Program-made: the position numbers and the translations under genes
Shown: one piece after another, positions 28,364 to 59,082 of the stretch
Position numbering within the stretch: the stretch's first letter is position 1
Layout: the number at the start of each line of letters is the position of its first letter
Assembly: GCA_963768855.1 (NCBI GenBank)
Contig: CAVYJM010000006.1
Coordinates: 896,001-960,000, forward strand
Source: an uncultured Thermoplasmata archaeon
Lineage (GTDB): Archaea > Thermoplasmatota > Thermoplasmata > RBG-16-68-12
DNA: 64,000 nt
Reading direction: 5' to 3'
Notes under the pieces: generated by a model
What the model saw: the letters and a program-made list of their open reading frames with translations, nothing else
The model's database searches: none
Told to the model about the DNA's origin: nothing

Positions 28364-28479
28364 TGCGGGGGATGGGATTTTCCGCCCGGCGCCTCTGGAC
28401 GCGGGGCCTTTGAACCCATGAACTCCTTCGAGACGGGATTTTAAGTCCCGCGCCGTTGTTCTAGCTTGGCTACCCCCGC
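28364..28479 (-). tRNA. tRNA-Leu(TAA) with a 31-nt intron in the T-loop (59/60; intron 28378-28408)
   Basis: GCGGGGG/CCCCCGC-A acceptor stem, CGGGA-CTTAAAA-TCCCG anticodon arm, long variable arm, ATGGG-TTCAAA[intron]T-CCCAT; spliced length 85 nt. Confidence 0.9.
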
Positions 28480-55110: not shown

Positions 55111-58100
55111 GTGGCGAAGCGGTCGAGGGGCACGCCATCGCGTCGGCGGCCTCGCCCGGCGAGGCGAAAGGGGGCCCGTCCGCGGAAGGACCGGACCCGG
55201 GCGCGCGTCCCCGTGACGAAGCGATCGAAGAAGGCGCCCAAGCCGCGTCGCACGACGCTTCCTCGTCGTCCGTCGAAACGAACGCGGGTGCGCGCTCGCG
55301 CACGCCCTGTCACACGAAAGGTGCGTCGGAGGAGTCCGCGGCGCACATCCGGGAAGATCGCGCCCCCTGCCCGCCCCCGTCGCCGGGTCGCGCCTGTGGC
55401 GCATCCGAGGGACCTCGATTTCCGCTCAATTGAGCAGAAATGGCAGGACGCATGGTCCCAGGCGGGGCTCTTCGAGGCGACCGCCGCACCCGGGAAGCCG
55501 AAGTGGTACTCCAACGTCCCGTACCCCTACATGTCGGGGTACCAGCACATGGGGTTCGGGGTCTCCTTCCTTCGGGCCGAGTTCCAGTCGCGCTTCCGGC
55601 GGATGCGGGGGTACAACGTCCTCCATCCGCAGGCGTTCCACTGCACGGGCCTGCCCATCCTCGGCGCCGCAAAGCGGGTGGCGGAGGGAGAGCCCGGGCA
55701 ATTGAAGATCCTCGAGCAGATGGGCGTGCCCGCTTCTGAGGTCCCCGCGTTCGCGGACCCCCTGCACTGGATCGAGGTCTTCCCGCAGGCCACGATCGAG
55801 GACCTGAAGGGCCTCGGCGCCGCCGTGGACTGGCGGCGGTCGTTCATCACGACCGAGCTGAACCCGCCGTACGACGCGTTCGTTCGCTGGCAGTTCCGCC
55901 GCCTCCGGGACGGGGGCTACGTGAAGATCGACAAGCACCCCGTGATCTGGTGCCCCAAGGACCAGGCCCCCATCGGGGACCACGACCGACTCGAGGGCGA
56001 GGGCGTCACGCCCCAGGCGTTCACCCTCCTCAAATTCCCCCTCGCCGATGGACGCATCCTCGTCGCGGCGACCATCCGCCCCGAGACGGTCTTCGGCCAG
56101 ACGAACATCTGGGTGGACCCCGCAGCCGAGTACCTGGTCGCCGCGGTGGACGGGGAGCGCTGGATTCTGAACGAGTCGGCCGCGGCGAAGCTGGGGGAGC
56201 AGGGAAAGAAGGTCACCCGCGAGGCAACCTTGCGCGGCGCCGACCTGGTGGGCCAGGAGGGCATCGCACCCATGATCAACCGCGCGGTCCCCGTGCTCCC
56301 CGGCGCATTCATCGACCAGGGCCGGGGGACGGGCATCGTGACGAGCGTCCCCTCCGATGCGCCCGACGACTATGTCGCGCTGCGGGAGGTGCAGGGGGAC
56401 GACGCGCTCCTCGAGCGATACGGGCTCGACAAGGACCGCATCCGGTCGATCGAGCCCTTCCCGATCATCAAGACTCCGGGCTGGGGCCCCCTCCCCGCGA
56501 AGGAGATCGTCGAGCGCATGGGGATCACGAGCCAGCGGGACAAGGACCGCCTCGCCGCGGCGAAGGCGGAGGTCTACAAGTCCGGGTTCTACCAAGGGGT
56601 CATGAACGAGCAGTGCGGCTCCTACGCCGGCATGCGCGTCGAGATCGCGAAGGAGGAGATCCGCAAGGAGCTCCTGGCGAACCGCCTCGCGGACACGATG
56701 TACGAGCCGAGCGCCGAGGTCGTATGCCGTTGTACGACGCGCGCGATCGTGAAGGTCGTCGAGGACCAGTGGTTCCTTGCCTACGGCGACGCGGCCTGGA
56801 AGACGAGGGCCCACGAGGGCCTCGCGAAGATGACCCTCTACCCGGACTCGATCCGGAAGCAGTTCGACTACGTGATCGACTGGCTCCAGGACTGGGCTTG
56901 CTCGCACCACAAAGGCCTCGGGACGAAGCTCCCCTGGGACGACCACTGGGTCATCGAATCCCTGTCCGACTCCACGATCTACATGGCGTACTACACGATC
57001 GCCCACGTGCTCCAGGGCGGCAAGCTGCGGAGCGAGGTGCCCTGGGCGGCCCGCCTCGACGACGCGTTCTTCGACTACGTGTTCCTGGGCCTCGGAGACG
57101 CGGCGTCCGTCGCCTCGCGTCTCGGCCTCGCCGCAGAGGACGTCGACCGCCTGCGGGGGGAATTCACGTACTGGTACCCCTTCGAGCTTCGCAACACCGG
57201 CAAGGACCTTCTCCAGAATCACATGACCTTCTGCCTGTTCAACCACGTCGCGGTCTTCCCGCCCGAACTCTGGCCCCGCGGCTTCGGCGTCAACGGGTGG
57301 GTCCTCATGGCGGGCATGAAGATGTCCAAGTCCAAGGGGAATACGGTCTACATCCGGGACGCCCTGAAGGACTGGGGGGCGGACACGGTCCGCGCGACCG
57401 TCGCGAACGCCGGGGACGGCGTGGACGACCCGAACCTGGAGAAGGAGTTCGCCGCGTCGATCCGCGCCCGCCTGCGGGACTGGCATGCCTACGCGACCGG
57501 ACCGCATGAGACGAGGTCGGAGCGCCGGACGATCGACGCTTGGTTCCTGTCCGTCCTCAACCGGACGATCGCGTCGACGACCGCGGCCATGGAATCCATG
57601 AGCTACAAGGCCGCTCTCCGGATCGGATACTTCGACCTCCAGGCCGCCTGGTCCTGGTATCTGCGGCGGTGCGGCGGGCGGCCCCACGCGGAGGTCCTGA
57701 CGCGGTTCCTCGAGGTCCAGACCAAGATCCTGGCGCCGTTCACGCCCCACGTCTGCGAGGAGATCTGGCAGCGGATGGGTCGGGAGGGGTTCGTTTCCAG
57801 CGCGGTCTACCCGACGCCCGACGCTCCCGAGATCGATCCCGCGGCCGAGGCCGCGGAGGCCCTCCTTCAATCCACCCTCGGGGATGTGCGCGAGATCCTC
57901 AAGGTCACGGGGCTCAAGCCGCGGCGGATCGCCCTGTACGTCGCGCCCGCGTGGAAGGCGCGCGTGCGCGCCCTCGCGATCGAGCTCGCGCGCGCGGGGC
58001 CCGTTCCCATGAACGTGCTGATGGAGACCGTCCTCGCGGAACCCGGCATGCGGGAACGGGCTCGCGACGTCGCCGCCTATGCGAAGCGGGTCGCGGACGA

Positions 58101-58302
58101 CCTGCGGCGGACGAAACCGGACGACGCGGCCCGCCTGGCCGTGGCGGACGAGCTGTCCATGTTCTCGGAGAACGCGGACTTCGCGCGGGCCGAGCTCCGT
58201 TGCCGAGTCGATGTCTTCCGCGCCGACGACGCGGCGCGCTGGGATCCCGCGAAGAAGGCGGAGCACGCCGTGCCGGGACGACCCGCCATCTACGTGGAGT
58301 GA
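55111..58302 (+). CDS. leuS: Leucyl-tRNA synthetase with a 95-aa polybasic N-terminal extension (alternative start 55396)
   Basis: IEQKWQ, HMGF at the HIGH position, CP1 TIRPET and GTGIVTSVPSDAPDD, GKDL, KMSKS. Confidence 0.93.
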   Translation: MAKRSRGTPSRRRPRPARRKGARPRKDRTRARVPVTKRSKKAPKPRRTTLPRRPSKRTRVRARARPVTRKVRRRSPRRTSGKIAPPARPRRRVAPVAHPRDLDFRSIEQKWQDAWSQAGLFEATAAPGKPKWYSNVPYPYMSGYQHMGFGVSFLRAEFQSRFRRMRGYNVLHPQAFHCTGLPILGAAKRVAEGEPGQLKILEQMGVPASEVPAFADPLHWIEVFPQATIEDLKGLGAAVDWRRSFITTELNPPYDAFVRWQFRRLRDGGYVKIDKHPVIWCPKDQAPIGDHDRLEGEGVTPQAFTLLKFPLADGRILVAATIRPETVFGQTNIWVDPAAEYLVAAVDGERWILNESAAAKLGEQGKKVTREATLRGADLVGQEGIAPMINRAVPVLPGAFIDQGRGTGIVTSVPSDAPDDYVALREVQGDDALLERYGLDKDRIRSIEPFPIIKTPGWGPLPAKEIVERMGITSQRDKDRLAAAKAEVYKSGFYQGVMNEQCGSYAGMRVEIAKEEIRKELLANRLADTMYEPSAEVVCRCTTRAIVKVVEDQWFLAYGDAAWKTRAHEGLAKMTLYPDSIRKQFDYVIDWLQDWACSHHKGLGTKLPWDDHWVIESLSDSTIYMAYYTIAHVLQGGKLRSEVPWAARLDDAFFDYVFLGLGDAASVASRLGLAAEDVDRLRGEFTYWYPFELRNTGKDLLQNHMTFCLFNHVAVFPPELWPRGFGVNGWVLMAGMKMSKSKGNTVYIRDALKDWGADTVRATVANAGDGVDDPNLEKEFAASIRARLRDWHAYATGPHETRSERRTIDAWFLSVLNRTIASTTAAMESMSYKAALRIGYFDLQAAWSWYLRRCGGRPHAEVLTRFLEVQTKILAPFTPHVCEEIWQRMGREGFVSSAVYPTPDAPEIDPAAEAAEALLQSTLGDVREILKVTGLKPRRIALYVAPAWKARVRALAIELARAGPVPMNVLMETVLAEPGMRERARDVAAYAKRVADDLRRTKPDDAARLAVADELSMFSENADFARAELRCRVDVFRADDAARWDPAKKAEHAVPGRPAIYVE

Positions 58303-58307
58303 GCCCC

Positions 58308-58802
58308 GTGAAGATCCCCAAGGCGACGGAACCGGAGGCTCCCCCGTTCAAGCGCAAGCGCGGACCGCCGCCGCAGGCCACGAAGCTCCTCATCGCCTCG
58401 CTGGGCGCGGGGCTCGTGTTCATGGCCCTCCTGGCCATCGTCTTCGTCCCGCGCTACCTGGAGAACCTGAACCCGGCGCCGTCCACGCTCCTCACGCTCC
58501 AGCTGAACACGACCGCGGGAGCGCCCCGGATCGACGTGACGTTTGCCCTGTATGACCTCGACCTGTCCAAGTTCAACGCATCCCTGACGCGCGACAACGG
58601 GACGATCGCCTCCCTTCCTGCCGGCCTCGGCGGGACAGATGCCGGCTTGAACTTCACGGACACGAACCGGGACGGCAAGCTGGACGCGGGCGACTTCTTC
58701 ACGCTTCCCGCGGGACCCCAGGCCAACTACCGCTTCGAGGTCTGGCAGGTCGACGTGGACCATCGCGTCGGGCTCCTCGCGTGGACGGGCGCTCCCGGGT
58801 GA
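58308..58802 (+). CDS. Membrane-anchored surface protein with a DxNxDG Ca-binding-like loop
   Basis: Basic N-terminus, one TM helix, FTDTNRDGKLDAGD. Confidence 0.7.
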   Translation: MKIPKATEPEAPPFKRKRGPPPQATKLLIASLGAGLVFMALLAIVFVPRYLENLNPAPSTLLTLQLNTTAGAPRIDVTFALYDLDLSKFNASLTRDNGTIASLPAGLGGTDAGLNFTDTNRDGKLDAGDFFTLPAGPQANYRFEVWQVDVDHRVGLLAWTGAPG

Positions 58803-58851
58803 GGTCGCCCGTCGGAATCCTTATCTAACGGCGCACATTAGGCCGCGCCGC

Positions 58852-58987
58852 GGGCCTGTAGCTTAGCTAGGTAGAGCGATCGGCTCTTATCGCCGCGCCT
58901 GTCGGACCGTCGAGAGACACCGATAGGTCAAGGGTTCGAACCGGCTGCGGGCATCTCCCCGCCGCCCCGGAAATCCCTTCAGGCCCG
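58852..58987 (+). tRNA. tRNA-Lys(CTT) with two introns: 37/38 (58890-58918, 29 nt) and T-loop 59/60 (58941-58973, 33 nt)
   Basis: GGGCCTG/CAGGCCC-G acceptor stem, ATCGG/CCGAT anticodon stem, AAGGG/CCCTT T stem; spliced length 74 nt; CCTTATCTAA TATA-like element upstream and T-tract downstream. Confidence 0.92.
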
Positions 58988-59082
58988 CTCTCCTTTTGTC
59001 GCCGGGAACTGCCCGCCCTCGCCATGAGGCAACTCTCAAGAACGCAGAAGGCCATGAGACGGGCGGTCGTGGAGGGTTGGAC

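What the first reader, a model, noticed from the sequence alone, without database searches (positions are those of the whole stretch)
58852..58987. tRNA-Lys(CTT) with two introns
Seen: intron 1 at 37/38 has a textbook BHB (CTCT/AGAG, bulges TA^T and AC^A). Intron 2 at 59/60 has central helix TTCG/CGGA, bulges AA^C and AA^T, and a C.C mismatch opening the inner stem (relaxed motif). Without intron 2 the gene looks 3'-truncated; the missing TCCCTTCAGGCCCG resumes 33 nt later. Multi-intron tRNAs are known mainly from Thermoproteales and a few other archaea.
Basis: seen in the sequence. Interest (0 to 1): 0.75.

Follow-up and report, generated by a model that had tools for sequence, protein, structure and literature searches.

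The report
Two-intron lysine tRNA gene, Thermoplasmata
This is a real lysine tRNA gene, the genome's only one for its main lysine codon, cut by two short protein-spliced introns; the kind is known, but it sits in a soil archaeal group that reviews describe as having only single, standard-site tRNA introns.

Summary
Removing window 58890-58918 (29 nt, site 37/38) and 58941-58973 (33 nt, T-loop site 59/60) leaves a perfect 74-nt tRNA-Lys(CUU). It differs at 1 of 74 positions from uninterrupted orthologues in sister families of the same order.

- **Splice motifs.** These motifs are kept in 35 (intron 1) and 14 (intron 2) orthologues, with compensatory changes.
- **Expression signals and use.** A conserved promoter box and the upstream leucyl-tRNA synthetase gene accompany the gene. 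It is single-copy, and AAG outnumbers AAA 63:5 in two checked genes.
- **Detection.** ARAGORN and Rfam miss the gene.
- **Host.** The genome is a Thermoplasmata MAG (GTDB order RBG-16-68-12, Ca. Angelarchaeales). Its only splicing endonuclease is a two-unit alpha'2-like enzyme without the loops linked to broad specificity.
- **Distribution.** In the genus, 10 of 30 species carry both introns and 20 only intron 1. T-loop introns of this shape look common across the class.
- **Earlier scan notes.** The scan noted multi-intron tRNAs before, in this genome and in other Thermoplasmata.

Verdict: a genuine new member of a known kind, of moderate interest. The suggested shared origin with the Leu T-loop intron is not supported.

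The parts
58814..58828 (+). Putative archaeal promoter (BRE-like purine stretch plus TATA-like box CTTATCTAA), about 24-38 nt upstream of the mature 5' end
   Evidence: This is an AT-rich box in a 67% G+C window. A box of the form AAYSTTTAAYTRA lies at the same distance upstream of the orthologous gene across the genus, and related boxes occur in other families. Function is inferred from position and conservation.
58852..58889 (+). Exon 1: acceptor 5' strand, D-arm, anticodon stem 5' strand and loop positions 32-37 (anticodon CTT)
   Evidence: Identical or nearly identical in about 35 orthologues.
58890..58918 (+). Intron 1, 29 nt, canonical site 37/38, strict hBHBh' motif
   Evidence: Central helix CTCT/AGAG, bulges TA^T and AC^A, inner helix CG/CG then a mismatch then CG/CG. 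The central helix is intact in 34 of 35 orthologues. The intron is absent in orthologues L028-L033.
58919..58940 (+). Exon 2: position 38, anticodon stem 3' strand, variable loop, T-stem 5' strand and T-loop positions 54-59
58941..58973 (+). Intron 2, 33 nt, T-loop site 59/60, 3-4-3 BHB with a C.C as first inner pair
   Evidence: The outer helix is the T-stem. Central helix TTCG/CGGA, bulges AA^C and AA^T, G+C-rich inner hairpin. The motif is recovered by minimum-free-energy folding of the whole precursor and of the T-arm in 11 of 12 orthologues. A compensatory G-C to A-U change occurs in the inner stem. The intron is missing precisely in 20 species of the same genus.
58974..58987 (+). Exon 3: T-loop position 60, T-stem 3' strand, acceptor 3' strand and discriminator G; no CCA is encoded
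58994..58997 (+). Oligo-T run, a likely archaeal transcription stop
   Evidence: T-runs follow the gene in many orthologues. Function is inferred.

Best explanation
Window 58852-58987 is the functional, single-copy gene for tRNA-Lys(CUU) of a soil Thermoplasmata archaeon (Ca. Angelarchaeales).

Proposed pathway:
- The gene is transcribed from a BRE/TATA promoter about 25-35 nt upstream, as a precursor of roughly 140 nt.
- Two independent bulge-helix-bulge motifs form in the precursor. One is built on the anticodon stem (intron 1, site 37/38) and one on the T-stem (intron 2, site 59/60).
- The genome's single splicing endonuclease, a two-unit alpha'2-like homodimer, cuts after the second base of each 3-nt bulge.
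- RtcB joins the three exons, and CCA is added after transcription.
- The product reads AAG, by far the commoner lysine codon.

Shown here: gene structure, motifs, their conservation and covariation, presence of the enzymes, and precise presence/absence of each intron among relatives.

Inferred: transcription, cleavage by this enzyme, ligation, and tolerance of the C.C closing pair.
For: - **Spliced product.** It is a perfect 74-nt cloverleaf. It matches uninterrupted orthologues in the same order at 73/74 nt, and those orthologues score 69-74 bits on Rfam tRNA.
- **Motif conservation.** On 7 two-intron orthologues, 95.8% of cells pair in the proposed structure against 32-55% when partners are slid. 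Two pairs change on both sides.
- **Anchored counts.** The central helix is intact in 34/35 orthologues for intron 1 and 13/14 for intron 2. Inner-stem G-C/A-U swaps occur.
- **Folding.** Minimum-free-energy folds recover the intron-2 motif.
- **Context.** The promoter box and the upstream archaeal LeuRS gene (TIGR00395, 1000 bits) are conserved across the genus.
- **Need for the gene.** No second tRNA-Lys(CUU) gene was found, and AAG:AAA is 63:5 in LeuRS plus EndA.
- **Enzymes.** One EndA gene carries two N-terminal and two catalytic-type domains, and RtcB is present.
- **Published support.** A homodimeric EndA from Ferroplasma cleaves minimal BHB substrates (PMC8707768 abstract). On that basis the position of the motif in the tRNA should not matter.
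Against: - There are no expression or splicing data.
- Free-energy folding of the anticodon arm prefers a slipped register with 1-nt bulges rather than the BHB (0 of 25).
- In this species the first inner pair of intron 2 is C.C. The 5' bulge could therefore act as a 4-nt loop.
- Alpha4 and alpha2 enzymes are said to need a strict 3-4-3 motif (PMC3239211). This EndA lacks the CSL/L1 and ASL/L2 inserts and has no C-terminal insert.
- The genome is a MAG with 7.7% estimated contamination. However, the gene lies on the 1.13-Mb main contig in conserved synteny.
Confidence: 0.9

Rival explanations
1. The gene is functional, but intron 2 of this species has a relaxed motif (C.C closing pair, effectively a 4x1 loop). 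A strict alpha'2 enzyme would cut it poorly. Either this lineage's loop-less EndA has broader specificity than the textbook rule allows, or a helper factor is needed.
For: The C.C is kept in 7 species and a G.G in an eighth, while G001, G052 and families f4 and f7 have a paired closing position. Bulges of 1-4 nt are described as substrates of (alpha-beta)2 enzymes only (PMC3239211). EndA here lacks L1, L2 and L3-type inserts.
Against: A single non-Watson-Crick pair can stack inside a helix and leave a 3-nt bulge. The 3' splice site sits in a fully strict bulge. No second endonuclease gene was found.
Confidence: 0.2
2. The locus is a decaying pseudogene. Intron 2 is a disabling insertion, and AAG is read by tRNA-Lys(UUU) through wobble.
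For: Standard finders reject the locus. A tRNA-Lys(UUU) gene exists at C6:~475060-475220.
Against: Exons are invariant and the inserted segment keeps a BHB with compensatory changes in 14 orthologues from three families. The promoter is conserved. The gene is the only CUU decoder in a genome where AAG is about 93% of lysine codons sampled.
Confidence: 0.04
3. The two-intron structure is an assembly or binning artefact, for example a chimeric join or contaminant DNA.
For: The genome is a MAG with 7.7% contamination and several duplicated small contigs.
Against: The gene lies inside a 1.13-Mb contig. The same two-intron gene, in the same place next to LeuRS, was assembled independently in 9 other species.
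Confidence: 0.02

Closest known systems
Multi-intron tRNA genes of Thermoproteales (Pyrobaculum, Thermofilum, Caldivirga; Sugahara et al. 2007/2008, as cited in PMC4090602 and PMC8450103)
   Same: Two or more short BHB introns sit in one tRNA gene, including non-canonical sites such as 59/60. The genes are missed by simple finders. Introns are gained and lost among close relatives.
   Different: The host here is a euryarchaeal-type Thermoplasmata, not TACK. Its EndA is a single two-unit protein without the crenarchaeal loop, not (alpha-beta)2 with CSL. The motifs here are strict or nearly strict 3-4-3 rather than HBh'/hBH.
Methanopyrus kandleri pre-tRNA-Glu(UUC), with a D-loop HBh' intron plus a 37/38 intron (Kaneta et al. 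2018, PMC5829648)
   Same: The host is a euryarchaeon with a loop-less EndA, and the tRNA carries one canonical and one non-canonical intron. The best solved-structure match of this genome's EndA is the fused M. kandleri enzyme (5x89, E = 5e-37).
   Different: The second intron is in the D-loop and strongly relaxed. The M. kandleri enzyme is a heterotetramer, and removal of that intron was inefficient in vitro. Here the second intron is in the T-loop with a near-strict motif.
ARMAN-2 pre-tRNA-Cys(GCA) (59/60, hBH) and pre-tRNA-Pro(GGG) (53/54 and 59/60, strict hBHBh') (Fujishima et al. 2011, PMC3239211)
   Same: The insertion site is the same 59/60 T-loop position, with the T-stem as outer helix. 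One of these genes also has two introns with strict motifs.
   Different: The host is DPANN with a three-unit epsilon2 EndA bearing a specific loop. This EndA shows a 7-residue gap at that loop.
pylT genes of Ca. Methanohalarchaeum thermophilum HMET1, with one or two BHB introns (PMC9071458)
   Same: This is another case of a two-intron tRNA gene outside TACK and DPANN.
   Different: The class (Methanonatronarchaeia), the tRNA and the intron positions differ. I did not examine those positions.

Membership tests
Archaeal protein-spliced (bulge-helix-bulge) tRNA intron | Excision restores a canonical cloverleaf with the conserved tRNA elements | tested here: met
   One search gives a 74-nt tRNA-Lys(CTT) with all stems perfect. 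It matches uninterrupted orthologue L030 at 73/74 nt.
Archaeal protein-spliced (bulge-helix-bulge) tRNA intron | A 3-nt bulge / 4-bp helix / 3-nt bulge spans both splice sites, flanked by outer and inner helices, with cuts after the second bulge base | tested here: met
   Intron 1 is strict, although this register is not the free-energy minimum. Intron 2 is 3-4-3 with a C.C as first inner pair.
Archaeal protein-spliced (bulge-helix-bulge) tRNA intron | The motif is maintained in relatives while the intron sequence drifts | tested here: met
   Searches show conserved central helices and G-C/A-U swaps in the inner stems. Intron identity is far below exon identity.
Archaeal protein-spliced (bulge-helix-bulge) tRNA intron | The host encodes the splicing endonuclease EndA and the ligase RtcB | tested here: met
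   EndA is at G000:C17. RtcB is at C6:311586-312893 with 573 bits.
Archaeal protein-spliced (bulge-helix-bulge) tRNA intron | Spliced mature RNA and excised introns are observed | not testable with these tools
   No RNA data are available for this MAG.
Thermoproteales-type multi-intron tRNA system | Two or more BHB introns in one tRNA gene | tested here: met
Thermoproteales-type multi-intron tRNA system | The host has an (alpha-beta)2 EndA carrying the crenarchaeal specific loop (CSL/L1) | tested here: not met
   There is a single gene with two full units. It shows an 11-residue gap where A. pernix alpha has the CSL.
Thermoproteales-type multi-intron tRNA system | The host belongs to Thermoproteales / TACK | tested here: not met
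   EndA relatives are Thermoplasmata MAGs. EA_11, UBA8695 and E29_bin30 are listed as GTDB o__RBG-16-68-12 in supplement 3 of PMC9038741.
Self-splicing group I intron in a tRNA gene | Intron of about 200 nt or more with a group I core | tested here: not met
   The introns are 29 and 33 nt. No Rfam intron family matches.
Split or permuted tRNA gene | Exons are encoded apart or in permuted order | tested here: not met
   The three exons are colinear within 136 nt.

The most novel reading that the evidence does not exclude
The gene is one visible piece of a class-wide, largely unreported set of T-loop (59/60) and multiple tRNA introns in Thermoplasmata. These would be processed by a loop-less two-unit EndA. 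If so, the accepted coupling between EndA architecture or specificity loops and intron diversity is wrong for this class. The within-genus presence/absence of intron 2 (10 species with it, 20 without, on a well-supported split) would then give a natural system for timing tRNA intron gain and precise loss.
Probability: 0.5. Interest if true: 0.55.

Novelty: new member of a known kind. Interest (0 to 1): 0.4.

Why it matters
- **Annotation.** The gene is needed to read the dominant lysine codon, yet routine annotation does not see it. Genomes of this soil lineage (Ca. Angelarchaeales, known for novel copper monooxygenases) will therefore appear to lack tRNA-Lys.
- **Conflict with reviews.** Reviews state that Euryarchaeota with alpha4 or alpha2 endonucleases carry only one intron, at the canonical site (PMC4090602). 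This gene, its relatives and the class-wide survey run against that statement. The motifs nevertheless stay close to the strict form such enzymes are said to require.
- **Intron turnover.** The clean presence/absence pattern of intron 2 among 30 congeneric species is useful material for studying how tRNA introns are gained and lost.

Tried and rejected
- **Standard finders.** ARAGORN in default mode and with intron options, on the window and on the whole genome, finds no tRNA-Lys. Rfam at gathering threshold finds nothing here. In permissive mode it forces a 17.7-bit tRNA match that mis-pairs the 3' end.
- **Free-energy folding as a test of intron 1.** It failed because the CTCTT/AGAGA repeat allows a slipped register. 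I used anchored pair counts instead.
- **Common origin of the 59/60 introns.** I aligned the cores of the five T-loop introns in the genome against shuffles. Lys(CUU) versus Leu(UAA) gave z = -0.77. Only Lys(UUU) versus iMet stood out (p = 0.002 before correction for 10 tests).
- **First species marker.** The ORF at 57540-58802 turned out to be a spurious frame overlapping the end of LeuRS. I used the LeuRS C-terminus instead.
- **Literature.** Searches for tRNA introns in Methanomassiliicoccales or Thermoplasmata returned nothing specific. The Angelarchaeales paper does not mention tRNA or introns.
- **Rejected readings.** A C/D-box guide RNA inside intron 2 is ruled out because 33 nt is too short. 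A group I intron, a split gene and a permuted gene were also rejected.

Full report
**What is in the sequence**

Window 58852-58987 reads as three tRNA pieces separated by two short inserts. Removing 58890-58918 (29 nt) and 58941-58973 (33 nt) gives a 74-nt sequence. ARAGORN folds it as tRNA-Lys(CTT) with every stem perfect, a TTCGAAT T-loop and discriminator G. No CCA is encoded.

The unspliced gene is invisible to standard tools:
- ARAGORN finds one unrelated tRNA in the window and no tRNA-Lys in the whole 2.87-Mb, 65.9% G+C assembly.
- Rfam at its gathering score finds nothing here.
- Rfam in permissive mode gives only 17.7 bits, with a wrong 3' end.

**The splice motifs**

- Intron 1 (site 37/38) uses the anticodon stem as outer helix. 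Its central helix is CTCT/AGAG and its bulges are TA^T and AC^A.
- Intron 2 (site 59/60) uses the T-stem as outer helix. Its central helix is TTCG/CGGA, its bulges are AA^C and AA^T, and a G+C-rich inner hairpin opens with a C.C.

Minimum-free-energy folding of the whole precursor and of the T-arm alone returns the intron-2 motif. Folding of the anticodon arm does not return the intron-1 motif. It slips one base in the CTCTT/AGAGA repeat in all 25 distinct orthologues. For intron 1 the evidence is therefore conservation, not thermodynamics.

**Comparative evidence**

A search of relatives found the orthologous gene in three states.
- Six genomes of sister families carry an uninterrupted 74-nt gene. 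One differs from the predicted spliced product at a single base, and all score 69-74 bits on Rfam tRNA.
- Twenty species of the same genus carry intron 1 only. One of these genes was scanned and scores 59.8 bits.
- Ten species of the genus (including this one), plus two other families, carry both introns.

In species without intron 2 the T-loop is exactly the sequence predicted by splicing. In species whose intron ends in G, T or C, the 59/60 assignment has no ambiguity.

On seven two-intron sequences, 95.8% of cells pair in the proposed structure against 32-55% when partners are slid. Two pairs change on both sides. Counts anchored on the splice sites show the 4-bp central helix intact in 34 of 35 (intron 1) and 13 of 14 (intron 2) sequences. 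G-C to A-U swaps occur in the inner stems.

The C.C closing pair is confined to this species' subclade. It is G.G in one species, and paired in G001, G052 and families f4 and f7.

**Context and need**

- An AT-rich box (CTTATCTAA, 58820-58828) lies about 28 nt upstream of the mature 5' end. It aligns with a conserved TTTAAYT-type box in all relatives.
- A T-run follows the gene (58994-58997).
- The upstream gene is archaeal leucyl-tRNA synthetase (TIGR00395, 1000 bits). This synteny holds across the genus.
- BLAST of the spliced product finds only this locus in the genome. AAG outnumbers AAA 63 to 5 in two verified genes.

**Who the host is and what cuts the introns**

The genome has one endonuclease gene. 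It encodes two N-terminal and two catalytic-type domains in one chain, so it is an alpha'2-like homodimer.
- Against A. pernix alpha it has an 11-residue gap where the crenarchaeal loop sits.
- Against ARMAN-2 it has a 7-residue gap at that enzyme's loop.
- Against M. jannaschii it has no C-terminal insert.
- Its best solved relative is the fused M. kandleri enzyme.
- RtcB is present.

Close EndA relatives come from Thermoplasmata MAGs. Three of them (EA_11, UBA8695, E29_bin30) are listed as GTDB order RBG-16-68-12, Ca. Angelarchaeales, in supplement 3 of PMC9038741. That paper says nothing about tRNAs.

**Distribution**

A tree of the LeuRS C-terminus (24 species, one marker) puts all eight sampled two-intron species on one side of a 98/98 branch, together with three one-intron species. 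The other side holds 13 one-intron species. This fits either one gain with some loss, or retention with loss. The single marker cannot decide.

Outside the order, uninterrupted tRNA-Lys(CUU) genes dominate. Families f14, f15, f18 and f21, however, have a strict 59/60 intron in the same gene without the anticodon intron.

A pattern for a T-loop split by a hairpin matches 113 of 151 sampled genomes of the class. The reversed control pattern matches 22. No matches occur in families f24, f20 and f25. These two class tallies include one unpublished genome (G144).

This genome itself has at least five tRNA genes with 31-33-nt introns at 59/60.

**Comparison with the literature**

Reviews and primary papers state that alpha4 and alpha2 enzymes need a strict 3-4-3 motif. 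They also state that Euryarchaeota carry single introns at the canonical site (PMC3239211, PMC4090602, PMC5829648). Known exceptions are M. kandleri tRNA-Glu and the HMET1 pylT genes.

The present gene conflicts with the statement about position and number. It conflicts only mildly with the statement about motif strictness.

Earlier notes of this scan report other multi-intron tRNAs in this genome and in other Thermoplasmata. I treated them as leads only.

**Verdict**

This is a real, probably essential two-intron tRNA gene. It is a new member of a known kind, in a lineage where the literature does not expect it. Interest is moderate.

Noticed in passing
window 55111-58302 (+): Archaeal leucyl-tRNA synthetase (TIGR00395, 1000 bits). 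The model matches from about residue 100 of the ORF, so the true start is probably near 55410. Its position directly upstream of tRNA-Lys(CUU) is conserved across the genus.
   Followed up: partly
G000 C6:475167, C6:954930, C6:1074459, C6:924419(-) (= window 28364-28479), C11:139995: At least five tRNA genes of this genome carry a 59/60 T-loop intron: Lys-UUU, Lys-CUU, Ile2-CAU, Leu-UAA and a probable initiator Met. All are 31-33 nt long. The cores of the Lys-UUU and iMet introns are more alike than shuffles (z = 3.5, p = 0.002 before correction for 10 tests).
   Followed up: partly
G000 C16:1483 vs C6:1074459; C3 vs C18; C11 vs C17; C21/C23/C24: Identical or near-identical stretches, including a second copy of the intron-bearing Ile2 gene, recur on small contigs. 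This points to assembly redundancy or strain mixture, in line with the 7.7% contamination estimate.
   Followed up: no
G000 C17:54944-55735 (-), protein P0001: The only splicing endonuclease is closer to the fused M. kandleri enzyme (5x89, E = 5e-37) than to the A. fulgidus (5e-23) or T. acidophilum (3e-18) alpha'2 enzymes. Its N-terminal, non-catalytic unit is full length. Relatives align from residue 24-25, so the annotated start is probably too early.
   Followed up: partly
class-level sample: T-loop introns of the same shape appear in most sampled Thermoplasmata families (113/151 genomes against 22/151 for a reversed control). None were seen in families f24 (0/12), f20 (0/3) and f25 (0/2). 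The sample includes one unpublished genome, G144.
   Followed up: partly
L090 (G098:C120:7410-7640): In family f9 the tRNA-Lys(CUU) gene carries an unusually long insert (roughly 90-100 nt) at the anticodon-loop site.
   Followed up: no
window 58884-58920: The CTCTT / AGAGA repeat around intron 1 allows two pairing registers. Nearest-neighbour folding always picks the non-BHB register, so energy-based intron finders could mis-place this splice site.
   Followed up: yes
window 58303-58813: About 500 nt lie between LeuRS and the tRNA promoter with no recognisable protein family. The ORFs at 57540-58802(+) and 58290-58763(-) have no Pfam or NCBIfam match. The stretch is homologous across the genus in tblastn.
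   Followed up: no
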